Source: a virus
Taxonomy: Duplodnaviria > Heunggongvirae > Uroviricota > Caudoviricetes
Virus record (IMG/VR): IMGVR_UViG_3300028840_006732
Length of the DNA stretch: 64,000 bases
Direction: 5' to 3' (one strand)
The notes below the pieces were generated by a model. The model was not told the origin of the DNA. It did not search any database and saw nothing but the letters and a program-made list of their open reading frames with translations. A program made the position numbers and the translations under genes. Every line of letters begins with the position of its first letter. Within the stretch, counting starts at the first letter, position 1. Shown in pieces: positions 27,413 to 64,000 of the stretch.

Positions 27413-27509
27413 CCGGCCGGTGGACCGGCCGATAACCCGTGTGAGTGGCTGGCTTTACCGCCAAATGCCACTTACAATAAGAGAGTCTCCTGTTGGAGGC
27501 GCACCGGGG

Positions 27510-27545
27510 GCTGGTCGAGTTCGGACGCTCGTCCAGCCTTTTTTC
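27510..27545 (+). terminator. putative rho-independent terminator (10-bp stem with one mismatch, GCTGGTCGAG/CTCGTCCAGC, then CTTTTTT)
   Basis: Inverted repeat plus T-run about 100 bp downstream of the stop at 27412. Confidence 0.5.
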
Positions 27546-27556
27546 ATGGACCAGCC

Positions 27557-27826
27557 ATGCGTGGACGCAAGCGAACCAGCAAACGAAAGACCGCGGAGGC
27601 GACGATCCATTTCACCTCGGCGAAGAACTCCGCCGGCAGGCGGCAACGATGTGTGTACGCCGAGTGCCAGTTGTCCGGTGGGCAGGTGGGCCCGATCTGG
27701 GGGCATGCAGACGAATCGGTCCGCAAAGCCCTGGCCGAGCTGACGGCCCGTTGTGACTGCCCGGCCCGTTTCCATCGGGCCCAGGAGTTCACCGGCGCCA
27801 GAGTCGCGAAATCCTCTCGACGTTGA
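27557..27826 (+). CDS. possible small basic protein (low confidence; region 27413-28060 has weak coding signal)
   Basis: ORF only. No RBS. Basic N-terminus. Confidence 0.25.
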   Translation: MRGRKRTSKRKTAEATIHFTSAKNSAGRRQRCVYAECQLSGGQVGPIWGHADESVRKALAELTARCDCPARFHRAQEFTGARVAKSSRR

Positions 27827-28061
27827 GCCTCCGTATCCGGTATCCTTGATGCAGTGACTTTGCCGCGGGTGTCGGCAGGTTAGGTGTCCCGGCGTAACTA
27901 GGATGTTTCGTCGGGCCTGGTACGTCACATGGCGGAAAGGCCGAGTGACAGGCGGGACGGCAGCACACCCGCTCGGCTGTCGTGTTGTTCCGGCCGCAAG
28001 TCGGAACCGAGGACCCGAGGTAGGGGATCTCGGGAAGTCACTCCTCCAAGGAGTCCGAGAC

Positions 28062-28397
28062 ATGGATGTCGGATTGCTCGCACTGGTCCTGTCTACTACG
28101 CTCCAGTGGGCCAATGCCATCATCTCCTTGGGCCTCTGCGTCCGCCGCTCGTTGGCCAGGTACTGCAACTACCGCGCCTGGATCTGGTGCTGGTGGCCGA
28201 TGAGCACGGCCTTCTTCTTGATGGCGATTCGTCGAACGGTCACTCTGGTTCACTGCGTGGTTCACCAGCACACCGGCGATCCTACCGCCGAGTTCATCGC
28301 GCTGATGATCTCCTTGTTGATGTGCAGTGGCCTGGTGGGGCTCTGGCTTAGAATGGGTGCCGAAAAGAATGGAGGCTGCGATGCCGGAGGTGACTAA
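28062..28397 (+). CDS. small multi-pass membrane protein
   Basis: AAGGAG 8 nt upstream. 3 hydrophobic helices. Confidence 0.55.
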   Translation: MDVGLLALVLSTTLQWANAIISLGLCVRRSLARYCNYRAWIWCWWPMSTAFFLMAIRRTVTLVHCVVHQHTGDPTAEFIALMISLLMCSGLVGLWLRMGAEKNGGCDAGGD

Positions 28398-28848
28398 GGC
28401 AGAGGTTCAAGAGCTGATCGAGCACGCCGTTGTGAAGCTCCGCGATGAAATGAAGGACTACATCGCGGAAAACTGCAAAGGCCACCGCAACTCGTTTCAT
28501 GCCACCTGCGAAGGACTGCGGACGCTTGTCCAGCAGCATGACATCTCTATCACCAAGCTCACGCAGCTTGCCGAGTCGGAGCGGAGCCTGGTGGGCACGA
28601 AGGTCGATGCCCTGACCGAGACGGTGAAGCGGCTGTGTCGCGTCATCGAGGGCAACGGCCACACGGGCTTTGCCACGCGGATGACGGTGGCGGAGAACGA
28701 ACTGCGAACACTTAACGAGGCCGCCGGGGAAGGCAGGCGCGGATGGCGGGAGGTCCTCATCCAGGCTCTGCCGGTGCTGCTGACCTGGGTCGGCTTCCTG
28801 GTCTTCTGGTTGATCTACACGATGGCCCAGTCGGGAGTAACGCCGTGA
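28381..28848 (+). CDS. hypothetical protein with C-terminal TM anchor (holin/spanin-like size class, function unknown)
   Basis: GGAGG 5 nt upstream. C-terminal TM helix ALPVLLTWVGFLVFWLIYTMA. Confidence 0.55.
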   Translation: MPEVTKAEVQELIEHAVVKLRDEMKDYIAENCKGHRNSFHATCEGLRTLVQQHDISITKLTQLAESERSLVGTKVDALTETVKRLCRVIEGNGHTGFATRMTVAENELRTLNEAAGEGRRGWREVLIQALPVLLTWVGFLVFWLIYTMAQSGVTP

Positions 28849-29411
28849 CCTTGATCTCCGTCACCGACGTGCCGTCTCCGGCCGTCCGCTGGTTCTACGA
28901 GCTGGGTTACCGGCTGCTCACCAAGCAGGCGGCAGATCCACCGAGGCCGGCGTACGTGCTCAGCGGCATGCTCTTCCACAAGCAGGGAGAGAACGGGGAC
29001 TGGATCATGCTCGGTGTCCCCAATGCCCTGGTCCGCGGCGTCTTCGCGGCGATGGACGAAGCGGGCGTGGAGCTGCCCCCCTCGGGCCCTGGGGAGCAGC
29101 TCGAAGCTCACATCTCGGTCATGCGACCGGAGGAGCTTGCCCGGATTGGCGGACCTGACCGAATCTCAGAGCGCGGCAAGCGGTTCCGTTATCGGCTCGG
29201 CGGTTTGGTCGAGGTCACGCCTCATGGTTGGCCCGAAATGTCGAAGTGTTGGATGCTGAGGGTGCACTCCCCAGATCTCCAACGGCTTCGTCGCTCGTAC
29301 GGACTCACGTCGTTGCCCAAGGACGGCCAATTCGATTTCCATATCACGGTCGCGGTACGGAGGAAAAGTGTCCTCGGACGGAACGAAAGTCACAAGGGAG
29401 AGACGAGCTAG
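28845..29411 (+). CDS. hypothetical protein
   Basis: GTGA start/stop overlap with the upstream gene. Confidence 0.5.
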   Translation: MTLISVTDVPSPAVRWFYELGYRLLTKQAADPPRPAYVLSGMLFHKQGENGDWIMLGVPNALVRGVFAAMDEAGVELPPSGPGEQLEAHISVMRPEELARIGGPDRISERGKRFRYRLGGLVEVTPHGWPEMSKCWMLRVHSPDLQRLRRSYGLTSLPKDGQFDFHITVAVRRKSVLGRNESHKGETS

Positions 29412-29587
29412 GTAGTCACGTCTTCGTTGCGCTTGATCGCATCGAAGACCTCACGTCGGTGGACAGGCACCTCCTTTGGTGCCTCGATGCCAAGGCGTAC
29501 TTTGTCGCCTCGGATCTCAACAACGACCACGGTGATGTCGTCGTTGATAACGATGCTCTCGTTCTTCTTCCTCGAAAGAACCAACAT
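29408..29587 (-). CDS. csrA: carbon storage regulator CsrA/RsmA homologue (RNA-binding post-transcriptional regulator)
   Basis: MLVLSRKKNESIVINDDITVVVVEIRGDKVRLGIEAPKEVPVHRREVFDAI aligns with E. coli CsrA ([48 protein letters not shown]). AAGGAG RBS on the minus strand 6 nt upstream. It is the only minus-strand gene in the window. Confidence 0.85.
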   Translation of the reverse strand: MLVLSRKKNESIVINDDITVVVVEIRGDKVRLGIEAPKEVPVHRREVFDAIKRNEDVTT

Positions 29588-29677
29588 CATGGACTCCTTC
29601 CTACAGTAGCCTCCGGTCACGACCGCATCCGATCTAAGAAGTATATCCCTCATGGGGGACATCGTCAAGGGTGGAAA

Positions 29678-31159
29678 ATGAACGAGAAAGTCGCCGATTT
29701 GTTGCTCCCGAAGGGCCTGACTCTGGCGGAGCTGGGGGGAGAGTTTGCCGGGCTTACCAAGCTGGCGGCCACCCTAACCGAGGCCAGGCAGGCGACTGAC
29801 ACCAATCCCTCTGAGGCCCAAGCCGAGGCCGGCAACTACCGCAAGGGGAAGTATTCCTGGCAGGGGCTCACCATCGTCATCGAGAACCCCAAGGGCTCCA
29901 TCCGATCCGGCGACGGCTGGGAGATCGAGATGCAGCACGACTACGGGTACTTCTCCCGTAGCGAGGGCAAGGACGGCGACCAGGTGGACGTCTTTCTCGG
30001 CCCCGATCGCCACAGTGAGCTGGTCTTCGTCGTCAACCAGGTCGACCCCGGCAGCGGCAAGTTCGACGAGCACAAGGTGGTCCTGGGGACAACTACCGAG
30101 GCCCAGGCTCGCAAGGTCTACCTGGCCAACTACGAGCGTGGCTGGAAGGGCCTGGGGAGCATCTTCCCGCTAACCGTGCCCCAGCTCAAGTGGTGGCTGG
30201 AGTACGGCAACACCAAAAAGGCCATCGAGGACGGCGCCTTCGCCAAGGCGGCGGAAGACACGGTCCAGGCCTACAAGCTCTTCCGCACCCTACCGACGCG
30301 GCCCGGGGAGCTGTTCCCGCTGTTCATCGACAAGACGAACCCGGTGCCCCGGGAGGAGTGGGTCGAGGCGGAGAACATCCCCACCGAGGGCTTTGCCCCG
30401 AGGCCCGGCTGGCACGCGGGAGCGCTGCCGTCCGCTCCGCATCTGCGGTCGAAGCGGGATCGGATTCAGCCCGGCCGGGTATGGGCCGAGGTCGAGCTGC
30501 CCGACGATGTCGACTGGCAAGCAGTCGCCGATGCGAGCCCGACCGGCGATGTCCGCGACCAGGTGCCGGAGGGTGGGCACTACCGGAAGAAGGCCCCGAG
30601 GATGCAGGGCGGTGAGTGGCTTATCGGCGGCGGCATGAAGATCCGCCAGGTCCTCTCCGACGACGAGGTCAGTGAAGTGCTGCGGCGGGCGGGGGAGGAC
30701 GACGCGGCGGAGAAGGAGCGGCAGGCGGCAGAGACGCCGGACGAGGAACTCCTCAAAACCGCTTTTGAGGTTCTCCAGAAGCTCGCGGCCGACGACGAAC
30801 ACATTCCCACCGTGGCCGTCGACCTGGACGGCACGATTGCGGTGAAAGAGGAGCCTTTCGATCCCAAGTCGATCGGCCCTCCTCGCCCCGGCGCCAAGAA
30901 GTGGCTGACGAAGTTCAAGAGCATCGGTGCCCGGGTCATCGTCTTCACCGTCCGCGGCGACACGGGGATGGTGAAGAAGTGGCTCAAGGAGAACGAGATC
31001 CCGTATGACTTCGTCAACCACAACCCCGACCAACCGGACGATGCTTCCGACAAGGTGTTGGCCGACGTCTACTGGGACGATCGCGGCGTGAACGCCGCCG
31101 GTCGCCTGGCGGATTCGGCTCCGACCGTGGTCGAAGAGTTGGAGGCAGCGGCGGCGTGA
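29678..31159 (+). CDS. multidomain protein: N-terminal inorganic-pyrophosphatase-like domain plus C-terminal HAD-superfamily hydrolase-like domain
   Basis: IVIENPKGS...DYGYFSRSEGKDGDQVDVFLGP...FDEHKVVLG parallels the family I PPase core (VVIEIP...NYGYI...DGDPVDVLV...KLVAVP). C-terminal VAVDLDGTIA...VFTVRGD...DVYWDDRG carries HAD motifs I-IV. Also contains palindromic motif copy 3 in-frame. Confidence 0.65.
   Translation: MNEKVADLLLPKGLTLAELGGEFAGLTKLAATLTEARQATDTNPSEAQAEAGNYRKGKYSWQGLTIVIENPKGSIRSGDGWEIEMQHDYGYFSRSEGKDGDQVDVFLGPDRHSELVFVVNQVDPGSGKFDEHKVVLGTTTEAQARKVYLANYERGWKGLGSIFPLTVPQLKWWLEYGNTKKAIEDGAFAKAAEDTVQAYKLFRTLPTRPGELFPLFIDKTNPVPREEWVEAENIPTEGFAPRPGWHAGALPSAPHLRSKRDRIQPGRVWAEVELPDDVDWQAVADASPTGDVRDQVPEGGHYRKKAPRMQGGEWLIGGGMKIRQVLSDDEVSEVLRRAGEDDAAEKERQAAETPDEELLKTAFEVLQKLAADDEHIPTVAVDLDGTIAVKEEPFDPKSIGPPRPGAKKWLTKFKSIGARVIVFTVRGDTGMVKKWLKENEIPYDFVNHNPDQPDDASDKVLADVYWDDRGVNAAGRLADSAPTVVEELEAAAA
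30751..30770. repeat. palindromic motif copy 3, CCTCAAAACCGCTTTTGAGG, inside CDS 29678..31159 (encodes LKTAFE)
   Basis: Exact 18-mer shared with copy 4. Perfect 8-bp arms. Confidence 0.7.
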
Positions 31160-31169
31160 GGAGGTGAAC

Positions 31170-31700
31170 ATGGACGTCACCTGGATTGCCGCGATGTTGT
31201 TGTCTGTCGTTCCGATGCCTTTGCATAAGGCACCGAAGCCGGCGCCCACGCCCCACCTGGCACCGCCGCGGCCGGCAGCGCGGCCCATGGTCCAGATTGA
31301 GTTCGAGTACGACATGGCCTGGACCGAGGGGGACTTCGTCAGGGAGATCGAGGGCGGAAGGATCGAGCCCCTGTGCGACTACCAGTGGTATGTCGTCTAT
31401 CGTCGCACGGGACCTGGTTTTCAGATGATCGGTACGGTCCGCGTCGGCAAGTTCATGAACTCCTACCCGGTCGAGGATTACTACGATCCGGATCGCGTTC
31501 TGCCCGACGACGACGAAATCATCTACGAAGACGGTGACGTGGTGTGGATCAAGCGTCCGGAAGGTGAGTGGCATTGTGAGTATCATGCCCTAAGGTTGTT
31601 TGGCAACGAGCGGAAGAGGTGCAAGGGCCTGACGAAGGCGGGGGAGATGTTGATCCAGAGCGTGCAGCGTAGATTCAACAAAAGGAGGCCGCAGCGATGA
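31170..31700 (+). CDS. hypothetical protein with N-terminal hydrophobic segment
   Basis: GAGGAGG 5 nt upstream. Confidence 0.55.
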   Translation: MDVTWIAAMLLSVVPMPLHKAPKPAPTPHLAPPRPAARPMVQIEFEYDMAWTEGDFVREIEGGRIEPLCDYQWYVVYRRTGPGFQMIGTVRVGKFMNSYPVEDYYDPDRVLPDDDEIIYEDGDVVWIKRPEGEWHCEYHALRLFGNERKRCKGLTKAGEMLIQSVQRRFNKRRPQR

Positions 31701-43051: not shown

Positions 43052-46000
43052 ATGCCGCTCGATCTGAACCTGATGCCGCCGACGCCGTCCAATCTGCTGT
43101 CGGGGGCACCTGCACCTGTTGCCGCTCCACCTCCCACTGACGAGGAGACACGGGAGTTCGGAGACACTGACGCCACGCGCCGCAACATCTATGATCAGGT
43201 GCTGGTAGCGGCCCAGGGGATCGAGCCGGTCTCAAATCAGACCCACACCCTGCGGCTCAGCAAGGTGGACTGGCAGGACCCGGACACCTTCACCCTGCGC
43301 CAACAGAAGGAAGCCATCCTCGGCGGCCGAACTCTCGGCCGGCGATTGCGTGGTACCTGGGAACTCGTCGACAACGAGACCGGCGGCGTGCTGGATCGCC
43401 GTCGCCAGGTCGTGGCCACGGTCCCGCATCTGACGCCCCGGGGGACGTTCGTCCATAGGGGCAACGAGAATACGCTTCGCAACCAGCAGCGGCTGCGGGG
43501 CGGTGTCTTCACTCGTGTCCGTGAAAATGGAGAGATCGAAGCCCATGCGAACATCCTTCCTGGAAAAGGGGTGTCTCATCGCTACTTTCTTGATCCTGAG
43601 AAGGGCGTTTTCTACGTTCGGCTCCACAACGCCAAGCTCCCCCTCATGCCGCTTCTTAAAGCGATGGGAGCGACTCCCGCGGAGCTTCGCGAGATCTGGG
43701 GCGACGACCTGTATGCGGCCAACTATCCGAAGGATGAAGGTGCCGCCATCAAGAAGTACGCGGGACACGTGCTGACCCGCGCCGACCAGGAGGACGAGGA
43801 GCGGACGACGGCGCAGAAGCTCGTCGATCGTTGGACCTCGATGGAGCTGGACCCCGAGGTCACCGGGCGTACCCTGGGAAAACCGTACGATCGCATGAGC
43901 AAGGAGGCCATCCTTGACACGACTCGAAAGCTACTTGCTATTTCTCGCGACGAGGCTGATGTGGATGACCGTGATTCTCTGGCGTACCAGCATTTCCTGG
44001 GCCCGGAGGATCTTCTGGCGGAGAGGATTGCCAAGGACCACGGTCGGCTCCGCCGCCAGCTTCTCTGGAAGGCCGCCCGCAAGGGTAACCTCTCGGGCAT
44101 GCCTTCTTCAGCCCTACGGCCACAGGTCGAGTCTGCAATCTTGCACTCAGGTCTCGGACAGCCCCTGGAGGAAATCAACCCCGCCGAGATCTTCGACAAG
44201 CAATACTCCATCAGCCGGCTCGGAGAAGGAGGTATCCCCTCGCTAGATGCCGTGCCCGCGGAGGCCCGTAGCGTGCAACCCAGCCACTTCGGGTTCGTGG
44301 ACCCGCTACGCACGCCGGAGAGCTTTCGTGTGGGCGTGGACGTCTACATGACCCGCAACGCCCGCAAGGGGAAGAACGGCCGGATCTACACGCAGTTCAA
44401 GGACCCCCGTAGCGGCAAGCTGAAGTGGCTTTCTCCGCAGGATGTTGCCGACTCGGTGATCACCTTCCCCAGAGCGCTGGCCCGCCCCGGAAAGCGGGTG
44501 ATCGCCATGAAGGGCAGCAAGATGATCTGGGCCAAGAAGCGGGACGTCAACCTGGTGATGCCCAATTTCGAGGACGCCTTCTCCCCGCTGGGCAACCTGG
44601 TCCCCATGAAGGGCGCCGTCAAGGGGCAGCGGATGGCCATGGCCTCGCGGATGCTCACCCAGGCGCTGCCCCTGGTCGAGCCTGAGTCCCCCTGGGTCCA
44701 GTCGGCGATGCCCGGGACCCGTGGCGGCCGAAGCTACGAGGAGGAGTACGCCAAGCAGATGGGGGCGGTTCACGCCAAACGCGGCGGCCGGGTGCTGGGT
44801 ATCGACGACGACGGCATGAAGGTCCGCTACGACGACGGCAGCGAGGACAGCATCGAGCTGTACCACCATTTCCCTTTCAACCGGAAGACATACCTGCACC
44901 AGACACCCCTGGTCCGGCCCGGCCAGAGGTTTGCTCCTGGTGCCTTGCTGGCCCGCTCGAACTACACCGACGAGCGCGGCGCCACGGCCCTGGGCCGCAA
45001 CGCCCGGGTGGCCTACGTCTCCTGGCAGGGGAAAAACCACGAAGACGCCATCGTGATCTCCGAGGGTTTTGCCAAGAAGCTGGCCTCGGAGCACATGTAC
45101 CAGAATGAGCTGGAGGTCGACGACAGAACGAAGATCGGTAAGAAGACCTATGTCAGCCTGTTTCCGTCCCGATACGAGCGCAAGATCCTGGAGACGCTGG
45201 ACGACCGCGGAGTCGTCAAACCGGGAACCGAGGTCGAGAAGGGGCATCCGTTGATCTTGGCGGCACGCCAGCGGGAGCTGTCGCACAACAAGGTCCACAA
45301 GAGGAAGCAGGCGTCCCATGCAGATCATAGTATTGTCTGGGATCATAACGATCCCGGAATCGTTACCGACGTTGTTGACGGCAAGAAAGGGCCGGTGGTC
45401 CTCGTCAAGAGTACGTCTCCCATGCAAAAGGGAGACAAGCTCTCAGGACGATACGGAGACAAGGGCGTCATTTCCGCGATCATCCCCGACGCGCAGATGC
45501 CGCAGGGGCAGGACGGGAAGCCTTTCGAGGTGCTGCTGAATCCGCTGGGGATTATCGGCCGGACCAATCCGTCGCAAAAGATCGAGCTGTGGTTGGGCAA
45601 GTTGGCTGCCAAGCAGGGCAAGCCGATTCGGGTCGAGGATTGGGACGACAGCCGCGATTACGTGGATTGGGCCCGCGAGCAGCTCCGCAAGGCCGGATTG
45701 TCGGACACCGAGGACATCATCGACCCTAGCAACGACTCCAAGATCCGCGGCATCCCTACCGGTAATCGCTTCTTCATGAAGCTCCACCATCAAGCAGAAG
45801 CCAAGGAGCAGGGACGAGGCGGCGGCGCCTACACGGCCGAGGACGCCCCGGCCAAGGGCGGCAAGCAAGGTTCCAAGCGAGTCGCCCTGCTGGACACCAA
45901 CGCCCTGCTTAGCCATGGAGCGGTCCACAACCTGGAAGACGTGGGCGCCATTCGTGGTCAGCGGAACGAGGACTACTGGCTCCAGTTCATGATGGGGCAC

Positions 46001-47494
46001 AACCCGCCGATGCCTCGGGTGCCGATGGCCTACCATAAATTCGTCGAGCAACTCCGGGCCTCGGGGATCAACGTCGTCCGCGAGGGCACGCAGACGAACA
46101 TCATGGCGCTGACCGACAAGGACGTCGACGAGCTGGCCGGGGATCGCAACCTGATGAAGAACGACGGCGTCGATTGGGGCCGGGGCCTGCGTCCCATCCG
46201 GGGCGGTCTGTTCGACAAGAAGCTCACCGGCGGCCACTCCGGTCGGCGATGGTCTGCGATCCGCCTGACCGAGCCGATGCCCAATCCGGTGATGGAGGAG
46301 CCGATCCGTCGCGTGCTCGGGCTGACCAAGGCCAAGTTCGAGGCCGTCATCTCCGGGGACCATGAGCTGCCCAAGTTCGGCACCGGCGCCCAGGCCATCG
46401 GTAAAGCCTTGCAAGCCCTCAACTTGGACAAAGAGTTGTCCATGGCAAGGGCCCAAGTCTCGCAAGGCAGCAAGACGGAGAGGGACCAAGCTGTCCGCAA
46501 GCTCGACTATCTCAAGCGGGCCAAGAAGCTCGGTATCCATCCTGGCGACTGGGTGTTGAAGCGGGCCCCGGTGCTGCCGCCGGCGTTCCGCCCGGTCTCG
46601 ATGATGGACAACGACCTGCCGATGATCTCCGACGCCAACTACCTCTACAAGGAGCTGATGGAGGCCAACGATAACCTGGCGGCCATGAAGAAGGAGCTGG
46701 GGGACGAGGGTGCTGGCCCGGAGCGGCTGGCCGTCTACCACGCCTTCAAGGCAGTCACCGGCCTGGGAGATCCGATCAGCCAGAAGAGCCGCGAGAAGAA
46801 CGTGCGGGGAATCCTCAAAAGCGTTTTTGGAAGCTCTCCCAAGTTCGGCACCGTGCAGCGTAAGCTGATCTCCACGACAGTGGACAACGTCGGCCGGTCC
46901 GTGATCACCCCCAACCCCGATTTCGACATGGACACGGTGGGCCTGCCCGAGGATGCGGCCTTCGATATTTACGGAAAATTCATCGCCAGGCGTATGCGTC
47001 GACAGGGGGTTCCTCTGACCCGGGCCCTCCAGCAGATCAAGGATCGTACCCCCCTGGCCCGGGAAACGCTCGTCGAGGAAATGGACGAGCGGCCGGTGTT
47101 CATCAACCGCGCCCCCGTGCTGCACAAGTTTGGCATCCTCGCCTTCCGCCCCAAGCTGGTGAAGGGGAGCACGATGCAAGTGAGCCCCCTGATTGTCAAG
47201 GGGTTCAACGCCGACTTCGACGGCGACCAGATGAACTTCCACGTCCCCACGGACGCGGCGGCCGTCAAGGAGGCCTACGAGCGGATGCTGCCTTCGGCCA
47301 ACCTGCTCAGCCCGGCCGATTTCAAGTCCCCGGTGCATGCTCCCGGGCAGGAGTTCGTCGGCGGTCTCTACCACGCCACCAAGTCACGAAGCAAACAATC
47401 GGTGCGGAAGTTTCACACTTTGGCCGACGCCAGGGCGGCCTACGCAGCCGGCAAGCTGTCCCTGGACGACCAGGTACAGATTTTGGATCAGTAG
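43052..47494 (+). CDS. multisubunit RNA polymerase: beta-like subunit fused to the N-terminal (active-site) part of beta-prime
   Basis: Beta motifs: [26 protein letters not shown] parallels E. coli [41 protein letters not shown]...[15 protein letters not shown] parallels GDKLAGRHGNKGV...LNPLGVPSRMN. Beta-prime motifs: [13 protein letters not shown] and [15 protein letters not shown], the catalytic Asp triad at 47207-47236. The ORF ends shortly after region D. Confidence 0.8.
   Translation: [1480 protein letters not shown]
46813..46830. repeat. degenerate copy of the palindromic motif (CCTCAAAAGCGTTTTTGG) inside the RNAP gene, same reading frame as copies 3 and 4 (encodes LKSVFG)
   Basis: 13/18 identity to the consensus in reverse orientation. 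Confidence 0.35.
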
Positions 47495-50667: not shown

Positions 50668-53600
50668 ATGCGAACGGCAACTCTGGGGCAGCATCTCGTC
50701 AACGAGACGCTGCCCGACGATATGCGCGACTACGACCGGGTCCTCGACAAGAAGGGGCTCTCCAGTCTGTTGCGCGAGGTCGCCGAGAAGCATCCCGACA
50801 AGTATCGGGAGATCTCCCACAAGCTGTTGGAGATTGGCAGCCGCGCGTCCCAGGAGTCCGGGGGCATGGCCTTCGGCGTCAAACACCTGGGCAAAGCCCG
50901 TGCCGCCGTCAAGACTCGCCAGAAGCTCACCAACGCCCTGGCGAAGATCCTTGACCGCGATGACCTGGACGACAGGAGACGGGAAGAGCTGATCGTGCGG
51001 GCCATCGGCCGGGAGATAGAACCCCAACAAGAGGCAATCCTCAAGGAGTCGCTGGAGGAGGGCAACCCGCTGGCCCTTCAGGTTCTGTCCGGTTCGCGCG
51101 GCAACAAGATGAACCTGGCAAGCCTCCGCGGCTCCGACATGCTTTACGTGGACCACCGGGGACGGCCGCTTCCCATCCCCATCCTTCGCAGCTACAGTGA
51201 AGGCTTGTCGCCGGAAGAATACTGGGCCGGCACCTACGGTGCCCGCCACGGCGTCATCGCCTTGAAGTCCGCCACCCGGGACGCCGGCTTCCTCAGCAAG
51301 CAGCTCAACCAGGTGGCTCACCGGCTGGTCGTCGTCGACGAGGACGAGGAGGAGGCACCCAAGGTCCTCCGCGGCATGCCCGTCGACACCAACGACATGG
51401 ATAACGAAGGAGCGCTGCTGGCCCATGACGCAGGACCCTACAAACGAAACACCCATCTCACCCCCAAGATCCTCAAGCACCTCCAACGAATGGGACATGA
51501 TCGAATCCTGGTCAGGTCTCCGATTATCGGAGGTTCGCCCGAAGGCGGCGTTTACTCGCGAGACGTGGGTGTACGTGAACGCGGTAACCTTCCGGGACTT
51601 GGTGAGATGGTTGGACTCACAGCCGCCCAGGCTCTCTCCGAGCCTCTGACCCAAGCGCAGATCTCGGCCAAGCACGGCGGAGGCGTGGCCGGGGAGGACA
51701 AGGCTGTCTCGGGGTTCGAGCGGATCAACCAGCTAGTCCAGACGCCACGGGTAATGAAAGGCGGCGCGGCACATGCCCAGGTCGATGGGACCGTGGGTCG
51801 CATCGAGAAAGCTCCCGCGGGTGGTAACTACGTCACCATCGACGGCGAGCAGCACTATGTGGGCCAGGGCTTCGACTTGAAAGTCAAGAAGGGTGATACG
51901 GTCGAAGCCGGGGACGTGCTTTCGGAGGGTCTCCCGAATCCGGGTCAGATCGTTCGACATAAAGGCGTTGGCGAGGGACGTCGTTACTTCACGTGGGCTT
52001 TCCGCCAGGCTTTGCAGGATGCAGGGCTCAAGGCTCACCGGAGAAACACCGAGCTGCTCAGTAGGGGGCTTATCAACCATGTCAGACTCACCGAGGAATA
52101 CGAAGACGGAGTTCCGGGTGACGTCATTCCGTATTCAACGCTCGAACACCGGTACACGCCTCGTGAGGACTACGAGGATGTCGAACCTCGGAGGGCGGTT
52201 GGCCAGTACCTTGAACGCCCTGTCCTCCATTATACGATCGGCACGAAGGTCCGGCCCTCGATGCTCCGGGAGTTCGAGCGATTCGGAGTGAACACGCTCA
52301 GTGTACACAAGAACCCGCCGCCTTTCGAGCCGGAGATGATTCGTGGCATGTACTCCATGCAGCACGACCCCGACTGGCTGGTCCGGCATTACGGCTCCGG
52401 CTTGAAGAAGAGCTTGCTCAGCGCGGCCCAGCGAGGCGGCACCAGCGAGGAGCGGGGCAGCTCCTTTGTCCCCGCCCTGGCCCGCTCGACCAATTTCGGC
52501 CGCACGCCGAACAGCGTCGTCCGCAAGCCTGGCCCCGGATTCGAGCCACCCCGGCCGAGCCTGGCCAGTGAGCAGACCGAGCAGCGTAAGCCGAAGCCGG
52601 TACGCAAGAGCTGGTTCGGTGGCCGGTTCAAACTCTCCTCGGACGCCGAGCTGGAGAAAATCGCCTCGCTTCCTGCTCCGTACAAGAAACCGACTTCGAC
52701 TCCCCCCGGCACCTCGGGCGGAGTCCAGGGAGCCGCCGAGCGTTCTGCGCAGGGGGTCGGTCCGAGTCCCTCTGCGCAGATGGGTACAACTGTACCTTCG
52801 GCGGGTACAGGCGGAAATCCGTATGCCGCAGGAGCAGCCGCTGCGGGAGGTGCTGGCGGTGTTGAGCAAGTCGGCTCCATGCCGGCGGCTCGGCCGCAGT
52901 GGGGTTCCTACGCAAGCCCGGGGATGATGGGCAGCCCGCTGGCTGTGCCGCTGATTCAACAGGTCAACAAGATGCTTCCCGGCGTGGGTGGCGTGATGAC
53001 CATGGGAACGCTGATGTCGCCGCAGTCCATGCGGGTCTTGACCAGCGGCCAACGATACTCCCCACTCTCCGGTACCGGCGGCTGGCAGGGAGCAGGCGGC
53101 AGCGGCATCCCGCCAGCCGGCTACCAGATTGACCAGCAACAGCCGACCCCCGAAGCTGCCCCTGAAGTCCAGCAGCCGGCTGCTCCTGCCGCGGACCCCC
53201 AGGCGGCCATGGACCAGCGGATCGAGCAGGGCGTTGACAACGCCTTCGATACGATCCTTGGAACCAAGCCCGGCACGGGTGTCTTCAGTGACGAAGCCCC
53301 CACGAACCTGCGAGATGCCTTGCCCGAGAGTGTGAGGAACTACACGCCTGACTGGGCCGAGGACATGTTCCTCCGTTTCATGCCCAACCCGGCCAACCCG
53401 TCGCGGGAGCTGGGCCAGGCGGCCATGATCCGTCAGGGCCTGGCCCCGATCGGTCGCGGACTGAGCACGCTCTGGCGGGCTCCAGTGAAGGGGACTGGCT
53501 ACTTGCCGTGGCTCCGCAACACGCGGGCCGGTGAGTGGCTGCGGAACATGAAGTTCATGTCTCCCAAGGGCGGACCGGGGATGCTTACCCGACTGATGAA

Positions 53601-54708
53601 TCGCATCCCCGGGGCCAGCAAGCTGTGGGGCGCCGCCAAGGGTGCCAAGCCGGGCGTAGGGCCGCTGGGCCATCTGGCGATCGCCCTGGACGCGATTGGT
53701 ACCGGCAGGAATGTTGTTCAGCATGGTCTTACCGGCCACGGTAGCGCTGGCGAGCAAGTCAACCAGCGTCGGCAGTCGCAGATCGAAGGAGCCGCCGCAG
53801 GGAATCCCCTGGACGCTGTGGGTTTCGCTGGAGAGTTTTTCAGCCCCTTCAGTACGGGGGCTGCGGGCGCAGAGACTGTCGCGGGTACCACCGAGGCGAC
53901 GATCCGCGGTGCCCAGGAAGCCGGCCGGAGTTACGGTTTGGGTTCGCAGCAACAGGAACTCTATCAGCGCCGCTCGGCCGAGGGCCTCGATCCCAGCAAC
54001 CCGATCAACCAGCGGGACTACCAGTTGCACAACGACAAGTCGATCCTCGATCCGCTGTCGCGGGTGTGGAGCCGGGTCAAGGAACGCCACGGTTACGGGA
54101 AAGACGGCACGCTCTGGGATAAGGCCAAAGGGATGGTCCTTCCGTACGCCGGGATCGCCCAGGGCATGATGGACATCCAGGACGTCATCAAGGAGCCGGC
54201 CGAGGCTGGAATGGAAGCCCTCCAGGAGTATAGCTCGCTGAAGGGCAAGGCCCAGCCGATCTTGCAGGAGCGGGCCGAGACCGCTCAGAGCCAGAAAGCA
54301 GCCCTCCCCGAGCAGATCCGCGAGTTGGAGAAGATCGAGGCTGCCGGCGGTCTGACGCCCGGGCAGAAGCAGTCTTTGGAAAAGCTCCGCCAGCGACAGG
54401 AGATGTCCGGCTACGAGCTGTCCCACGAGGGTATGGGGGCTGGTGAACGGATTATGGAGGATGTTCACCTGAAGCGTCCGGGTGTCCCAGGTGTGGAGCC
54501 GATCCACCTCCCCGGAGCCGGCTGGGGCCTCAAACGCTTTGCCACGCCGGCGGAAATCTGGCGTGGTGAGGTCTCCTTCAACCCCTTCTTCAAGCGAGGT
54601 CTCGACGAGATGGGCGGGGCGCCGCTGGTCGGCGGATTTCCCATCCTCTTCGAGGAGGAGCCTTTTGCTATTGGCGAGGCCGCGCAAAATGGGCTAGAAT
54701 CGGCCTAG
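50668..54708 (+). CDS. multisubunit RNA polymerase beta-prime C-terminal part (bridge helix / trigger-loop regions) with about 750-aa low-complexity C-terminal extension
   Basis: GARHGVIALKSATRDAGFLSKQLNQVAHRLVVVDED parallels the beta-prime bridge helix [20 protein letters not shown]. GGAGG 5 nt upstream. The C-terminal half is G/A/P/Q-rich with no recognisable domain. Confidence 0.75.
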   Translation: MRTATLGQHLVNETLPDDMRDYDRVLDKKGLSSLLREVAEKHPDKYREISHKLLEIGSRASQESGGMAFGVKHLGKARAAVKTRQKLTNALAKILDRDDLDDRRREELIVRAIGREIEPQQEAILKESLEEGNPLALQVLSGSRGNKMNLASLRGSDMLYVDHRGRPLPIPILRSYSEGLSPEEYWAGTYGARHGVIALKSATRDAGFLSKQLNQVAHRLVVVDEDEEEAPKVLRGMPVDTNDMDNEGALLAHDAGPYKRNTHLTPKILKHLQRMGHDRILVRSPIIGGSPEGGVYSRDVGVRERGNLPGLGEMVGLTAAQALSEPLTQAQISAKHGGGVAGEDKAVSGFERINQLVQTPRVMKGGAAHAQVDGTVGRIEKAPAGGNYVTIDGEQHYVGQGFDLKVKKGDTVEAGDVLSEGLPNPGQIVRHKGVGEGRRYFTWAFRQALQDAGLKAHRRNTELLSRGLINHVRLTEEYEDGVPGDVIPYSTLEHRYTPREDYEDVEPRRAVGQYLERPVLHYTIGTKVRPSMLREFERFGVNTLSVHKNPPPFEPEMIRGMYSMQHDPDWLVRHYGSGLKKSLLSAAQRGGTSEERGSSFVPALARSTNFGRTPNSVVRKPGPGFEPPRPSLASEQTEQRKPKPVRKSWFGGRFKLSSDAELEKIASLPAPYKKPTSTPPGTSGGVQGAAERSAQGVGPSPSAQMGTTVPSAGTGGNPYAAGAAAAGGAGGVEQVGSMPAARPQWGSYASPGMMGSPLAVPLIQQVNKMLPGVGGVMTMGTLMSPQSMRVLTSGQRYSPLSGTGGWQGAGGSGIPPAGYQIDQQQPTPEAAPEVQQPAAPAADPQAAMDQRIEQGVDNAFDTILGTKPGTGVFSDEAPTNLRDALPESVRNYTPDWAEDMFLRFMPNPANPSRELGQAAMIRQGLAPIGRGLSTLWRAPVKGTGYLPWLRNTRAGEWLRNMKFMSPKGGPGMLTRLMNRIPGASKLWGAAKGAKPGVGPLGHLAIALDAIGTGRNVVQHGLTGHGSAGEQVNQRRQSQIEGAAAGNPLDAVGFAGEFFSPFSTGAAGAETVAGTTEATIRGAQEAGRSYGLGSQQQELYQRRSAEGLDPSNPINQRDYQLHNDKSILDPLSRVWSRVKERHGYGKDGTLWDKAKGMVLPYAGIAQGMMDIQDVIKEPAEAGMEALQEYSSLKGKAQPILQERAETAQSQKAALPEQIRELEKIEAAGGLTPGQKQSLEKLRQRQEMSGYELSHEGMGAGERIMEDVHLKRPGVPGVEPIHLPGAGWGLKRFATPAEIWRGEVSFNPFFKRGLDEMGGAPLVGGFPILFEEEPFAIGEAAQNGLESA

Positions 54709-62734: not shown

Positions 62735-64000
62735 ATGTCCATGATCAAGTACGTCTCACCGGCAGGTTGGGACTGGGATCGACCGGTGGTCGTTCCCGTG
62801 AAGTGTTCCAGCCGCGGGCTGATCGGGACGGACCGCGCTGACTTCGTCAAGTCGGCCGGCGCCGCCCACGTCTTCCTTGACGTGCTGGACAATATCAAGG
62901 TCGCCAAGGACGAGGTCCCCCTGCACATCATCGCCCTGGGCGCCATGGAGGCGTACGGGATCAACCGCAACGGGGACGGCTTCCCCAAGAGTGCCTGCGA
63001 GAAGTACCATCCCACCTTCGTGAAGTTCGCCCGGTTCTTCCGCAACCACAAGAACAAGCCCGAGAAGGGGCATCCCCACTTCGGCATCATCAAGGCCTCG
63101 GCCTGGAACCCGCAGATGCAGCGGGTGGAGCTGCTGGCCGTGCTCAACGCCGAGAAGAGCGCCTGCGATCGCAACGGGGGCTTCGTGGCCGACATCGAGC
63201 TGGAGAAGCTCGCCCGCGACGGCGATCTCCCGGTGTCGATGGCCTGCCGTGTCCCCTTCGATGTCTGCACCTTCTGTGGCAACCAGGCCAAGAGCCGCGA
63301 CGACTACTGCACCCCCGGCATGTGCAAGGCCGGCGGCTGCAAGGACAATCTGACCCGCGTGGTGAAGGTCGCCGGAGACATGCACCACCTGGGCGTGAAG
63401 AACCTCTTCCCCACCTGGTTCGACATGAGCCGGGTTTTCCGCCAGGCAGACCGGATCGCCTCCGGGGCCAAGGCCAACTACTTCGAGAAGGCTGCGGCAG
63501 ATGGCGGCGTGTTCGACTTCAAGGCTGCTGCGGAGCTGGCCTCCCAGGATACCGCTCCGATCCAGGTCATCATGTACCAGGACGGGCTGCCCGGGGAGTG
63601 GAGCACCAAGATCGCCGCCCAAATCAAGCTCGGCTACGGAATGGCCTCCTGCGAGGCGATCGAGGCCCAGCGCTCGGCGGAGGCCTATTGTGGCCTGGAG
63701 CCCCAGTCCCCCTTCGACGTCGACGTGCTGGAAAAGCCCGGCTCGGAGAAGGGTGCGGCGGATCTCGGGGCCTTGGCCGACCGGAAGATCATCCTTCACA
63801 TTCGAGACTTCGGCCGCTGGCTCGGGCACGGAGAGGGCCTGGTGAAGGCCGCCTCCGAGCACCTGCCCGGGATCTACCAGCGGATGATCGACGACGACTC
63901 CATCGAGCGTCGAATCGAGCAAAACAAGTACCCCCTGGCCGAGAAGCTGGCCTCTGCGGCGGTTCGTACGGCGGCCAACCTTGGGGCCAGGGAGTATTCG
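62735..64000 (+). CDS. hypothetical Cys-containing protein, 3'-truncated by the window end (not in the supplied ORF track because no stop falls within the window)
   Basis: GGGAGG 10 nt upstream of the ATG at 62735. Open frame of at least 422 codons with strong GC3 bias. Confidence 0.55.
   Translation, partial: MSMIKYVSPAGWDWDRPVVVPVKCSSRGLIGTDRADFVKSAGAAHVFLDVLDNIKVAKDEVPLHIIALGAMEAYGINRNGDGFPKSACEKYHPTFVKFARFFRNHKNKPEKGHPHFGIIKASAWNPQMQRVELLAVLNAEKSACDRNGGFVADIELEKLARDGDLPVSMACRVPFDVCTFCGNQAKSRDDYCTPGMCKAGGCKDNLTRVVKVAGDMHHLGVKNLFPTWFDMSRVFRQADRIASGAKANYFEKAAADGGVFDFKAAAELASQDTAPIQVIMYQDGLPGEWSTKIAAQIKLGYGMASCEAIEAQRSAEAYCGLEPQSPFDVDVLEKPGSEKGAADLGALADRKIILHIRDFGRWLGHGEGLVKAASEHLPGIYQRMIDDDSIERRIEQNKYPLAEKLASAAVRTAANLGAREYS

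What the first reader, a model, noticed from the sequence alone, without database searches (positions are those of the whole stretch)
29408..29587. CsrA/RsmA homologue as the only opposite-strand gene in a phage-like gene array
The 60-aa product aligns along its whole length with bacterial CsrA, including the GxxAPxEV RNA-binding region and the conserved Arg near position 44. It is the sole minus-strand gene among about 75 genes, and it has its own divergent intergenic region (29588-29677) with a TATAT-containing stretch. A mobile-element-encoded CsrA could reprogramme host post-transcriptional regulation, or regulate the element's own GGA-containing leaders. Many RBSs in this window are GGAGG or AAGGAG, which contain the GGA motif CsrA binds.
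Basis: partly seen in the sequence, partly recalled or inferred. Interest (0 to 1): 0.65.

Follow-up and report, generated by a model that had tools for sequence, protein, structure and literature searches.

The report
Jumbo-phage CsrA gene, reverse-oriented cassette
A large, uncultured bacteriophage (probably infecting Planctomycetota) carries a nearly host-identical copy of the bacterial translation regulator CsrA as a small backward-facing gene with its own host-type promoter; this is real and under selection, but phage-borne CsrA genes are already a known kind.

Summary
Positions 29408-29587 (minus strand) encode a 59-aa, full-length canonical CsrA (Pfam E=1e-26; gapless alignment to solved CsrA/RsmA/RsmE; L2, L4, R6, GxxAPKEV and R44 all present).

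The window is phage, not chromosome. It has a fused RNA-polymerase beta/beta' gene and a structural module collinear with Salmonella phage Arash. It also has InPase and 2H-SAK domains, and the exact neighbouring protein lies on a contig of up to 236 kb.

csrA is the only supported minus-strand gene. It has a sigma70-like promoter (TTGACG-17-TATACT), one of only two such sites in 64 kb, and a leader with four GGA motifs.

Two deeply diverged relatives (L123/L124, L120) carry the same reverse cassette between the same two genes. Other relatives lack it.

CsrA is 91% identical between window and L123, while flanking proteins are 34-66% identical. Synonymous sites are saturated, so the gene is under strong purifying selection.

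The closest cellular CsrAs are from Planctomycetota (Pirellulales).

The likely role is host-type post-transcriptional reprogramming, self-limited through its own leader. There is no sign that it targets the phage's own leaders.

Phage-encoded CsrA is already published (2020, 2021, 2025), so this is a new member of a known kind. Interest is modest.

The parts
29408..29587 (-). csrA coding sequence (59 aa plus stop), a canonical CsrA/RsmA-family RNA-binding protein
   Evidence: Translation. Pfam PF02599 E=9.6e-27. NCBIfam equivalogs score above cut-off. Gapless alignment to solved CsrA structures. Compared with the phage relative L123, dN=0.066 while synonymous sites are saturated.
29588..29633 (-). 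Predicted csrA 5' leader (about 46 nt). It has four GGA motifs (29630-29628, 29614-29612, 29601-29599, 29597-29595). The last two lie within the Shine-Dalgarno AGGAAGGAG (AAGGAG = 29599-29594).
   Evidence: Read directly from the sequence. The GGA positions are conserved in relative L123 and reduced to the SD only in L120, which has a degenerate CsrA-like protein. The MFE fold is not unusual, z=-0.06. The transcription start site is inferred from the -10 box, not measured.
29640..29668 (-). Sigma70-like promoter of csrA: -35 TTGACG (29668-29663), 17-nt spacer, -10 TATACT (29645-29640)
   Evidence: It is the only promoter-like site in 27000-31500 and one of only two sites with at least 10 of 12 consensus matches in the whole 64-kb window on both strands. 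L123 has TTGACG-18-TATACT with a near-identical spacer. The -35 hexamer is conserved in L120.
29588..29677 (.). Divergent 90-bp intergenic region shared by csrA (-) and the InPase-fusion gene (+). The csrA promoter overlaps the 5' leader and RBS region of the plus-strand gene.
29408..29411 (.). CTAG tail-to-tail overlap of the stop codons of csrA (-) and the 2H-SAK gene (+). There is no room for a terminator between the convergent genes.
   Evidence: Sequence. The same CTAG overlap occurs in relative L120, and L123 has a 22-nt overlap. No minus-strand terminator-like site was found downstream of csrA.
28845..29411 (+). Upstream convergent neighbour: a 188-aa protein with a 2H-SAK ('Swiss Army Knife' 2H phosphoesterase) domain
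   Evidence: Pfam PF22547 E=2e-11. Gene call from the identical contig L081/L119.
29678..31159 (+). Divergent neighbour: a 493-aa fusion protein with an InPase domain, a middle domain and a C-terminal HAD/PNK-phosphatase-like region
   Evidence: Pfam PF18823 E=1e-49. PHROG hits to polyvalent/DarB-like proteins and phosphatases.
43052..47494 (+). Context that identifies the element as a phage: a fused RNA polymerase beta plus beta' N-terminal half (1480 aa)
   Evidence: Pfam Rpb2_3, Rpb2_6, Rpb1_1, Rpb1_2. 31% identity over 96% of its length to Salmonella phage Arash gp206, and 29% to Vibrio phages D181/D148/D69.
50668..54708 (+). Context: a second RNA polymerase subunit (beta' C-terminal-half-like, 1346 aa)
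   Evidence: Pfam Rpb1_5. Matches Arash gp216.
62741..64000 (+). Context: a homologue of a virion 'structural protein' (Arash gp222). The ORF runs off the window end.
   Evidence: tblastn gives 36% identity, E=6e-25, to Arash gp222. It also matches the Vibrio D-phages, Bacillus phage G gp19 and Rhodococcus phage Finch gp17. Its order is collinear with the Arash RNAP/structural module.

Best explanation
This is a functional, canonical CsrA gene carried by a jumbo phage. The phage has a genome of at least 236 kb, encodes its own multisubunit RNA polymerase, and most likely infects Planctomycetota.

The gene sits as a self-contained, backward-facing cassette, with its own sigma70-type promoter, leader and CDS. 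The cassette is inserted between two co-directional phage genes (2H-SAK and an InPase fusion).

Proposed mechanism:
(1) Host RNA polymerase transcribes csrA from the TTGACG-17-TATACT promoter, independently of the phage's own plus-strand transcription programme.
(2) The 59-aa protein dimerises like any CsrA and binds GGA motifs at or near Shine-Dalgarno sequences. This adds to the infected cell's CsrA activity and shifts the host CsrA regulon (carbon storage, biofilm, motility and possibly defence mRNAs) toward a state that favours phage production.
(3) Its level is self-limited by binding to the four GGA motifs of its own leader, as in E. coli csrA.
(4) Plus-strand phage transcription must read through the whole cassette in antisense, because there is no terminator and the stop codons overlap. 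csrA expression is therefore probably curtailed once phage transcription of that operon is high.

What is shown: family membership with intact RNA-binding residues, phage context, promoter and leader motifs and their conservation, cassette conservation and patchy distribution, and strong purifying selection.

What is inferred: steps 1-4 (which polymerase, timing, RNA targets, autoregulation, antisense silencing) and the host.
For: Identity. Pfam and NCBIfam match at full length. The alignment to E. coli CsrA, P. aeruginosa RsmA and P. fluorescens RsmE is gapless, with L2, L4, R6, K7, V40, V42, H43, R44, E46 and V47 in place.

Phage context. The fused beta/beta' RNAP and a second RNAP subunit have full-length relatives in cultured phages Arash and Vibrio D181/D148/D69. 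Gene order is collinear through to a structural-protein homologue. InPase and 2H-SAK domains are present. Coding is almost entirely on one strand. The exact neighbouring protein lies on a contig of up to 236,137 bp. The same phage (99.99% nt identity) appears in an independent sample.

Own promoter. It is the only sigma70-like site in 4.5 kb and one of two in 64 kb. It is conserved with a near-identical spacer in L123 and with the same -35 in L120, although these relatives share no detectable nucleotide similarity with the window by blastn.

Cassette conservation. The order 2H-SAK(+) | CsrA(-) | InPase(+) occurs in L120 and in L123/L124. It is absent in L125, where 2H-SAK and InPase are directly adjacent. 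It is also absent in L121/L122 and the P0128 contig.

Selection. CsrA is 91% identical between window and L123, against 34-66% for eight syntenic neighbours. pS=0.84 (saturated) and dN=0.066.

Host. Of the 80 best GTDB genome hits (81-95% identity), 71 are labelled Planctomycetota, mostly Pirellulales.

Leader. Four GGA motifs lie in about 46 nt, at positions conserved in L123.

Precedent. Knock-down of a phage csrA homologue reduces plaque size in coliphage PTXU04 (PMC11879866). Phage CsrA presence correlates with host CsrA (PMC8450108).
Against: There are no expression, binding or phenotype data for this gene.

The count of sigma70-like sites in the window (2) is not above shuffled expectation (1.2 +/- 1.3). 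The promoter call therefore rests on its position and conservation, and the conserved bases also form the leader/RBS region of the divergent InPase gene.

The leader does not fold unusually, and its GGA motifs are not clearly presented in hairpin loops (z=-0.06).

No terminator was found for csrA.

The CsrA core is almost invariant across the whole Planctomycetota subfamily and also occurs in a few MAGs labelled Patescibacteria. High identity therefore gives only an approximate host and says nothing about a recent transfer; synonymous sites against a host copy are saturated.

No capsid, portal or terminase gene lies inside the window.
Confidence: 0.6

Rival explanations
1. The phage CsrA mainly regulates the phage's own mRNAs. 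It would act as a temporal translational repressor, functionally like T4 RegA, by binding GGA-containing leaders and Shine-Dalgarno sequences of phage genes.
For: Most phage RBSs are GGAGG or AAGGAG and so contain GGA. A few leaders carry 4-5 GGA motifs, for example the genes starting at 4000 and 28062. The gene is embedded in the phage's early-looking counter-defence and nucleotide-metabolism region.
Against: Outside the SD itself there is no GGA enrichment in 61 plus-strand leaders: 1.0 per leader at -60..-19 against 1.05 expected from background. High-affinity CsrA binding normally needs two sites (established knowledge of the family). The protein is kept almost identical to host CsrA. That is expected if it must recognise the host's co-evolved targets or partners, and is not required for a private phage regulon. 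The cassette is absent from close relatives that keep the same neighbouring genes, so it is not a core part of the phage programme.
Confidence: 0.15
2. It is specifically an anti-defence gene. By mimicking host CsrA/RsmA it represses translation of host immune systems, such as CRISPR-Cas, as proposed for phage RsmA homologues.
For: RsmA represses three CRISPR-Cas systems in Serratia, and those authors proposed that phage RsmA homologues exploit this (PMC8450108). Here the gene lies between two domains typical of counter-defence 'polyvalent proteins' (2H-SAK, InPase). In coliphage PTXU04 the csrA homologue lies three genes from a polyvalent protein.
Against: There is no information on defence systems, or on their regulation by CsrA, in Planctomycetota. 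The neighbourhood argument is guilt by association. This is a special case of the main explanation rather than a distinct mechanism.
Confidence: 0.12
3. The phage copy is a 'tail-less' CsrA selected to escape or perturb host control. It lacks the variable C-terminal tail of the cellular proteins, so it may evade a protein antagonist (FliW-type). Or it may form heterodimers with host CsrA that are mis-regulated, locking CsrA activity on.
For: The window protein is 59 aa. Seventy cellular copies of the same subfamily have a median of 73 aa, and only one is 61 aa or shorter. Eighteen IMG/VR viral copies have a median of 62 aa, and nine are 61 aa or shorter (Mann-Whitney p=2e-4, not corrected for relatedness). 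FliW-regulated CsrAs are characterised by a C-terminal extension, and Planctomycetes are listed among phyla that may use FliW (PMC7829508; PMC4682653). Near-identity of the dimer-forming core to host CsrA makes mixed dimers plausible (inference).
Against: In C. jejuni, a CsrA lacking its last 15 residues (60 aa left) still binds FliW. The critical residues are V51 and N55, and the phage protein keeps I51 and N54 plus five more residues. The relative L123 keeps a 67-aa form. The short tail may simply result from the tail-to-tail overlap with the 2H-SAK gene. The host csrA locus examined has no adjacent fliW. I did not verify that the IMG/VR contigs are viral.
Confidence: 0.1
4. It is a passenger gene with no role for the phage, or the window is ordinary chromosome or prophage flank where csrA is simply the host's own gene.
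For: csrA has lower GC (53%) than the window (63%) and is patchily distributed among relatives. No capsid, portal or terminase gene lies inside the window.
Against: Strong purifying selection between deeply diverged phage copies. Conserved promoter, SD and orientation. Collinearity with the cultured phage Arash, including divergent phage-type RNAP and a structural protein. The host csrA loci have entirely different neighbours, TatD and ferrochelatase, and those neighbours have no match in any of the 80 IMG/VR csrA loci.
Confidence: 0.03

Closest known systems
Chromosomal CsrA of Planctomycetota (Pirellulales: Pirellulaceae, Thermoguttaceae and others), e.g. the 73-aa protein of Thermoguttaceae MAG JAXGXG010000001
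   Same: 88-98% identical over residues 1-55, with the same RNA-binding residues. One core substitution (I20V) separates it from the nearest database protein.
   Different: The phage protein is 59 aa and lacks the 10-30-residue variable polar/acidic tail. The genomic context is unrelated: TatD and ferrochelatase in the host, 2H-SAK and InPase in the phage. Synonymous sites are saturated, so this is not a recent copy of any sampled host gene.
Phage-encoded CsrA/RsmA homologues already described (Sobrero & Valverde 2020, PMC7366521; Campa et al. 2021, PMC8450108; PTXU04 gp28 in Adler et al. 2025, PMC11879866; annotated csrA in Vibrio, Pseudomonas, Providencia and Bacillus phages)
   Same: A small canonical CsrA close to the host's own protein, carried by a phage whose host lineage has CsrA. 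In PTXU04 it also lies near a polyvalent counter-defence protein.
   Different: Identity to this protein is at most 67%. The sequenced isolates are 40-60-kb phages of Proteobacteria and Firmicutes. Here the carrier is a jumbo phage of at least 236 kb with its own multisubunit RNAP and a probable Planctomycetota host. Here the gene is a reverse-oriented cassette. In about 76 IMG/VR csrA loci with callable neighbours, only about 3 have both neighbours on the opposite strand, using crude gene calls.
CsrA-family genes of other mobile elements: plasmid RsmQ (pQBR103), pMBA19a RsmA, Legionella ICE CsrT/CsrR
   Same: An accessory CsrA paralogue on a mobile element, thought to cross-talk with the host Csr/Rsm regulon (PMC7366521 and PMC8450108; RsmQ and CsrT from my own knowledge).
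   Different: Those are diverged paralogue subfamilies on plasmids and ICEs of Proteobacteria. This one is virtually the host orthologue sequence on a lytic-looking jumbo phage.
E. coli csrA autoregulation (CsrA binds GGA sites in its own leader, one overlapping the SD; Yakhnin et al. 2011, from my own knowledge)
   Same: Several GGA motifs lie in a short leader, with the last ones inside the SD. Spacings between sites are 12-17 nt, within the range a CsrA dimer can bridge.
   Different: Binding is untested here. The leader has no significant predicted structure.
Phage morons (independently transcribed accessory cassettes inserted between core genes)
   Same: Own promoter, insertion between two genes that are directly adjacent in a relative (L125), patchy distribution, and lower GC than the surroundings.
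   Different: No terminator was detected. Orientation is antisense to the surrounding operon. The carrier is not known to be temperate.

Membership tests
CsrA/RsmA family (PF02599; NCBIfam TIGR00202 / NF002469) | Full-length match to the family profile above the curated threshold | tested here: met
   PF02599: 93.2 bits against cut-off 27, model positions 1-52 of 53. NF002469: 86.4 against 73. TIGR00202: 83.8 against 70.1.
CsrA/RsmA family (PF02599; NCBIfam TIGR00202 / NF002469) | RNA-binding residues of strand beta1 (L2, L4, R6, R/K7) and of the beta5 region (V40, V42, R44, I/V47), including the essential Arg44 and the GxxAPxxV segment | tested here: met
   The alignment with 1Y00, 1VPZ and 2JPP is gapless. 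The residues present are L2, L4, R6, K7, G33, A36, P37, V40, V42, H43, R44, E46 and V47. The list of critical residues comes from the literature (Mercante 2006, my knowledge; R44 is also stated in PMC7366521).
CsrA/RsmA family (PF02599; NCBIfam TIGR00202 / NF002469) | Interdigitated homodimer with five beta strands plus one helix | not tested
   Inferred only from about 50% gapless identity to solved dimers. A single-chain structure prediction would not be informative, so none was run for this protein.
CsrA/RsmA family (PF02599; NCBIfam TIGR00202 / NF002469) | Sequence-specific binding to GGA motifs in RNA and translational control | not testable with these tools
   Needs EMSA, CLIP or complementation. 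The only supporting observation is the conserved set of GGA motifs in its own leader.
Phage-encoded CsrA homologues | The gene lies on a bona fide phage genome rather than on host DNA | tested here: met
   Divergent fused RNAP and a structural-protein homologue are collinear with the cultured phage Arash. Coding is on one strand. The contig reaches 236 kb. Host csrA loci have different neighbours. Caveat: no capsid, portal or terminase gene lies inside the 64-kb window.
Phage-encoded CsrA homologues | The protein is highly similar to the CsrA of the (predicted) host lineage | tested here: met
   88-98% identity to Planctomycetota CsrAs. The host itself is inferred, not demonstrated.
FliW-antagonised CsrA class | C-terminal extension beyond about residue 60 | tested here: not met
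   The protein ends at residue 59. Cellular relatives have a median of 73 aa.
FliW-antagonised CsrA class | Conserved V/I51 and N55 needed for FliW binding | tested here: inconclusive
   I51 is present. The Asn is at position 54 (RNE), not 55. The residue roles are taken from PMC7829508.
FliW-antagonised CsrA class | A partner fliW gene in the element or the host | not tested
   No fliW lies next to the host csrA in L103/L104. The window was not fully screened for FliW. The literature lists Planctomycetes among phyla that may use FliW.
Moron-type accessory cassette | Own promoter, and presence/absence polymorphism between otherwise adjacent core genes | tested here: met
   Promoter motif. The cassette is present in the window, L120 and L123/L124. 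In L125, 2H-SAK and InPase are directly adjacent.
Moron-type accessory cassette | Own transcription terminator | tested here: not met
   There is no minus-strand terminator-like site downstream of 29408, and the stop codons of the convergent genes overlap.

The most novel reading that the evidence does not exclude
The reverse csrA cassette may be a host-polymerase-driven takeover switch peculiar to this lineage of RNAP-encoding jumbo phages.

In this reading, a tail-less CsrA that is almost indistinguishable from the host's is made at once from a sigma70 promoter. It escapes or subverts the host's CsrA antagonists, by FliW evasion or by mixed dimers. It is then silenced by head-on, antisense transcription from the phage's own polymerase.

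In a sister lineage (L120/P0210) the same locus would have evolved into a natural single-chain tandem CsrA with only one intact RNA-binding site plus a basic tail.
Probability: 0.12. Interest if true: 0.6.

Novelty: new member of a known kind. Interest (0 to 1): 0.33.

Why it matters
It extends phage-borne CsrA to a jumbo phage with its own RNA polymerase and, probably, to Planctomycetota. Almost nothing is known about phages or about the Csr system in that phylum.

Three features mark it as a selected function rather than hitch-hiking DNA: the cassette is conserved, it is far more conserved than its neighbours, and it keeps its own host-type promoter. Because the phage otherwise brings its own transcription machinery, the locus offers a clean natural case of a phage using the host polymerase for one gene.

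It does not open a new category. The general idea that phages carry host-like CsrA to manipulate the host is published, and one knock-down phenotype is known.

Tried and rejected
1. A CsrB/RsmZ-like sponge RNA near csrA. The 650-bp non-coding gap 27413-28062 has about 15 GGA against about 12 expected (my hand count from the sequence). Rfam finds only a tRNA in the window. Rejected.

2. Enrichment of paired GGA motifs in phage leaders. None was found beyond the SD.

3. Recent capture from a sampled host. The DNA alignment shows conservation only at codon positions 1 and 2, and dS is saturated. Rejected.

4. Shared synteny with the 80 best IMG/VR csrA loci. None was found. Host-type neighbours (TatD, ferrochelatase) are also absent from those loci.

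5. Searches for relatives of the phage. megablast against INPHARED found nothing. The 611-aa neighbour against IMG/VR found nothing. The InPase protein against IMG/VR and JGI metagenomes gave only domain-level hits. Relatives were found only through the protein database plus contig look-ups.

6. The FliW-escape hypothesis. It is weakened by the C. jejuni deletion data and is kept only as a low-probability rival.

7. Hallmark virion genes in the window. PHROGs and Pfam gave none. Phage identity rests instead on tblastn to phage Arash and relatives. The 883-aa protein has no tblastn hit in INPHARED.

8. Structure of the L120 tandem CsrA-like protein. The AF2 model has pLDDT 73 and 5+5 strands, but Foldseek against the PDB gave no significant match. 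The pseudo-dimer idea therefore stays unproven.

9. Leader fold. It shows no significant structure.
Full report
1. What is there

The minus-strand ORF at 29408-29587 translates to MLVLSRKKNESIVINDDITVVVVEIRGDKVRLGIEAPKEVPVHRREVFDAIKRNEDVTT, 59 residues.

It matches Pfam CsrA (PF02599) over essentially the whole model (E=9.6e-27, 93 bits against a cut-off of 27). It also passes the curated cut-offs of two NCBIfam CsrA equivalogs.

Against solved structures it aligns without gaps over residues 1-54 with E. coli CsrA (1Y00), P. aeruginosa RsmA (1VPZ) and P. fluorescens RsmE (2JPP). The residues that the literature identifies as forming the RNA-binding surface are all present: beta1 L2, L4, R6, R/K7; beta5 V40, V42, R44, I/V47.

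The start at 29587 agrees with all homologues and with an AAGGAG Shine-Dalgarno six nucleotides upstream. The longer 86-aa TTG ORF listed mechanically is not supported.

2. Phage, not chromosome

The window has 62.8% GC and codes almost only on the plus strand. A codon-position GC test gives a plus-strand signature in 63% of sliding windows and a minus-strand signature in 6%. Apart from csrA, the minus patches fall inside plus-strand ORFs of atypical composition.

It encodes:
- A class II ribonucleotide reductase.
- A 1480-aa protein that fuses RNA polymerase beta with the N-terminal half of beta'.
- A 1346-aa protein with the beta' C-terminal domain.

The fused subunit has full-length relatives (29-31% identity, 96% coverage) in cultured Salmonella phage Arash (181 kb) and Vibrio phages D181/D148/D69 (187 kb).

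The order of genes in the window is collinear with Arash gp206, gp216, gp218, gp220 and gp222. That order is RNAP-1, RNAP-2, two weakly similar proteins, then a 36%-identical homologue of Arash 'structural protein' gp222.

The genes flanking csrA carry 2H-SAK and InPase domains. By PHROGs, these match segments of giant DarB-like polyvalent phage proteins.

The exact InPase protein lies on contigs of up to 236,137 bp. A 16-kb contig from another sample is 99.994% identical to the window.

By contrast, chromosomal csrA in a 7.5-Mb Thermoguttaceae MAG sits between TatD and ferrochelatase genes. No capsid, portal or terminase gene falls inside the window, so the phage call rests on the evidence above.

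3. Anatomy of the locus

csrA converges on the 2H-SAK gene (28845-29411, +). The two stop codons overlap in the tetranucleotide CTAG (29408-29411), which leaves no room for a terminator, and no minus-strand terminator-like site follows.

Upstream, a 90-bp region separates csrA from the divergent InPase-fusion gene (29678-31159, +). That region contains, on the minus strand, TTGACG-17 nt-TATACT (29668-29640), matching the sigma70 consensus at 10 of 12 positions.

It is the only such site in 27000-31500 and one of just two in the whole 64 kb on both strands. The other (19965-19993, +) lies about 200 nt upstream of a tRNA-like gene. Two sites is not more than shuffles give (1.2 +/- 1.3), so the argument for function rests on position and conservation.

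The predicted leader of about 46 nt carries four GGA motifs, the last two inside the SD (AGGAAGGAG). Its predicted fold is unremarkable.

csrA and the intergenic region have 53% GC, against 63% for the window.

4. Relatives

Neither INPHARED, IMG/VR nor the JGI metagenome scan contained close relatives of the phage. Protein-level relatives of the InPase fusion did lead to syntenic contigs.

L123/L124 (two samples) share nine syntenic genes with the window at these amino-acid identities:
- HTH regulator: 58%
- g25078: 42%
- the 611-aa protein: 34%
- g28381: 35%
- 2H-SAK: 62%
- CsrA: 91%
- InPase: 60-64%
- g32329: 42%
- RNR: 66%

They carry a 67-aa canonical CsrA in the same reverse orientation between 2H-SAK and InPase. 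The promoter is TTGACG-18-TATACT, with a spacer nearly identical to the window's, and the leader GGA motifs are in the same arrangement. Yet blastn detects no nucleotide similarity between these contigs and the window.

Between the two phage csrA copies, 84% of synonymous sites differ (saturated), while dN is 0.066. The gene is therefore under strong purifying selection in the phage lineage and is by far the most conserved protein of the neighbourhood.

L120 has the same arrangement: the same CTAG stop overlap, the same -35 hexamer and the same AAGGAGTCCA SD. But its reverse gene encodes a 179-aa, much-diverged CsrA-like protein, and its leader has lost the upstream GGA motifs.

In L125 the 2H-SAK and InPase genes are directly adjacent with no csrA. 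In L121/L122 and the P0128 contig, other plus-strand genes occupy the gap.

The cassette is thus old and maintained in part of the lineage but is accessory. It behaves like a moron inserted at an operon junction, except that it lacks its own terminator and faces backward.

Among 80 other IMG/VR csrA loci, csrA is usually co-oriented with its neighbours. Only about 3 have both neighbours on the opposite strand, by crude gene calls. The orientation is a property of this lineage, not of viral csrA in general.

5. Origin and host

The best database hits (88-98% identity over residues 1-55) are CsrAs of Pirellulaceae, Thermoguttaceae and other Planctomycetota. Of the 80 best hits in one-genome-per-species GTDB contigs, 71 are labelled Planctomycetota, 7 Patescibacteria/Peregrinibacteria and 2 unclassified.

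The core of this subfamily is nearly invariant, and synonymous sites between the phage gene and a host gene are saturated. High identity therefore indicates the host lineage only approximately and does not indicate a recent transfer.

The phage protein stops four residues after the conserved RNE. Cellular members carry a variable 10-30-residue polar tail. Their median length is 73 aa (n=70), against 62 aa for IMG/VR members of at least 80% identity (n=18). Mann-Whitney gives p=2e-4, uncorrected for relatedness, and I did not check that the IMG/VR contigs are truly viral.

6. How it most likely works

I commit to the reading that this is a working CsrA that augments host CsrA activity. It would be made from its own host-type promoter, independently of the phage polymerase programme, and would bind GGA-containing leaders of host mRNAs.

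It would be self-limited through its own multi-GGA leader, as in E. coli csrA (my knowledge: Yakhnin et al. 2011).

In L125 the flanking genes abut as an operon. With csrA inserted there is no terminator, so plus-strand transcripts must contain the complete antisense of csrA. Head-on transcription and RNA duplex formation would then be expected to shut csrA down when that operon is strongly transcribed.

All of these steps are inferences from anatomy and from the family's established biochemistry.

Published support for a phage benefit comes from three sources:
- Knock-down of the csrA homologue of coliphage PTXU04 reduces plaque size (PMC11879866).
- Phage and host CsrA presence are correlated, and RsmA represses CRISPR-Cas in Serratia (PMC8450108).
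- A survey found csrA in 30 of 2517 phage genomes (PMC7366521).

The alternative that it controls the phage's own leaders finds no support. GGA upstream of the SD is at background frequency in 61 leaders.

The 'escape from FliW' idea is attractive given the short tail, but it is weakened by two points. A 60-aa C. jejuni CsrA truncation still binds FliW, and the key positions (V/I51, Asn at about position 55) are retained here.

7. Comparison with what is known, and novelty

This is a member of the CsrA family by every sequence criterion I could test. It belongs to the already described set of phage-encoded, host-like CsrAs.

INPHARED holds 38 records with relatives at 67% identity or less, annotated as csrA in Vibrio, Pseudomonas, Providencia and Bacillus phages of 40-60 kb.

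The new points are:
- The carrier: a jumbo phage of at least 236 kb with a fused multisubunit RNAP.
- The probable host phylum.
- The conserved reverse-cassette architecture with a host-type promoter.
- The finding that csrA is the best-conserved gene of its neighbourhood.

That makes it a new member of a known kind, of moderate-to-low interest to a specialist.

8. Verdict

Novelty is limited; interest is 0.33.

Noticed in passing
window 20192-20268 (+): A tRNA-like gene (Rfam tRNA, 50.8 bits) with normal acceptor, D and T arms (GGUUCGAUUCC). Its anticodon arm is an extended stem capped by a UACG tetraloop, so there is no 7-nt anticodon loop and ARAGORN reports 'tRNA-???'. It could be a tRNA mimic, a decoy or a processing signal. 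The only other strong sigma70-like promoter in the window (19965-19993, TTGACT-17-TACAAT) lies about 200 nt upstream.
   Followed up: partly
window 43052-47494 (+) and 50668-54708 (+): The phage multisubunit RNA polymerase has an unusual split. One 1480-aa protein fuses beta with the N-terminal half of beta' (Pfam Rpb2_3, Rpb2_6, Rpb1_1, Rpb1_2). A separate 1346-aa protein carries the beta' C-terminal domain (Rpb1_5). The same architecture occurs in Salmonella phage Arash gp206/gp216 and in Vibrio phages D181/D148/D69.
   Followed up: partly
L120 3977-4516 (-) (JGI 3300041085, Ga0452209_058738); relative P0210: At the orthologous locus and orientation, a sister phage encodes a 179-aa CsrA-like protein that looks like two tandem CsrA repeats followed by a strongly basic tail. 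Repeat 1 keeps beta1 (MLSFKR) but lacks the HR44 motif. Repeat 2 (Pfam CsrA E=5e-7, residues 96-127) lacks R6 but keeps IDREEV. If it folds as a single-chain pseudo-dimer, it would have one intact RNA-binding site. The AF2 model (pLDDT 73) shows 5+5 strands, but Foldseek found no significant PDB match. Its leader has lost the upstream GGA motifs.
   Followed up: partly
L001-L080 (IMG/VR) versus L127-L206 (GTDB genomes): Virus-associated members of this CsrA subfamily tend to lack the variable C-terminal tail. Median length is 62 aa (n=18) against 73 aa (n=70), Mann-Whitney p=2e-4. This is not corrected for phylogeny, and the viral status of the contigs was not verified. The single 59-aa 'genomic' copy is in a 41%-GC Staskawiczbacteria MAG contig (L157).
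   Followed up: partly
window 27413-28062: An unusually long (650 bp) non-coding gap in an otherwise tightly packed genome. It starts with a GC-rich hairpin right after the stop of the 611-aa gene. It also contains a canonical-looking intrinsic terminator (stem GGCTGGTCGAG...CTCGTCCAGCC followed by TTTTTT, about 27510-27550). GGA motifs are not enriched (about 15 against about 12 expected, counted by hand), and Rfam gives no hit at gathering threshold.
   Followed up: partly
window 2060-24874 (+): A long run of sugar-nucleotide and modification genes on a phage: glycosyltransferases, a DegT-type aminotransferase, an NAD-dependent epimerase/dehydratase and several methyltransferases. A similar set (dTDP-sugar isomerase, epimerases, nucleotidyltransferase, DegT, methyltransferases) flanks the 2H-SAK/InPase genes in relatives L121/L122. 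This suggests a phage-encoded glycan or DNA-hypermodification pathway.
   Followed up: no
window 24882-25112 (+): A small (76-aa) GerE/LuxR-type, sigma70 region-4-like HTH protein just upstream of the 611-aa gene. It is conserved at 58% identity in relative L123. It is a candidate phage transcription factor or sigma-region-4 mimic.
   Followed up: no
window 28845-29411 and 29678-31159 (+): Domains usually found inside giant 'polyvalent' counter-defence proteins occur here as separate or small-fusion genes. These are 2H-SAK and InPase, the latter fused to a HAD/PNK-phosphatase-like region. The InPase partner domains are shuffled among relatives: NUDIX, acylphosphatase, GNAT, SNF2 helicase and DNA ligase.
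   Followed up: no
L131, L156, L157, L166, L183, L201, L204 (GTDB contigs): Contigs binned as Patescibacteria/Peregrinibacteria carry CsrAs 83-95% identical to the Planctomycetota-type protein. This could reflect mis-binning, phage contigs in MAGs, or real horizontal spread. It limits the precision of the host inference.
   Followed up: no
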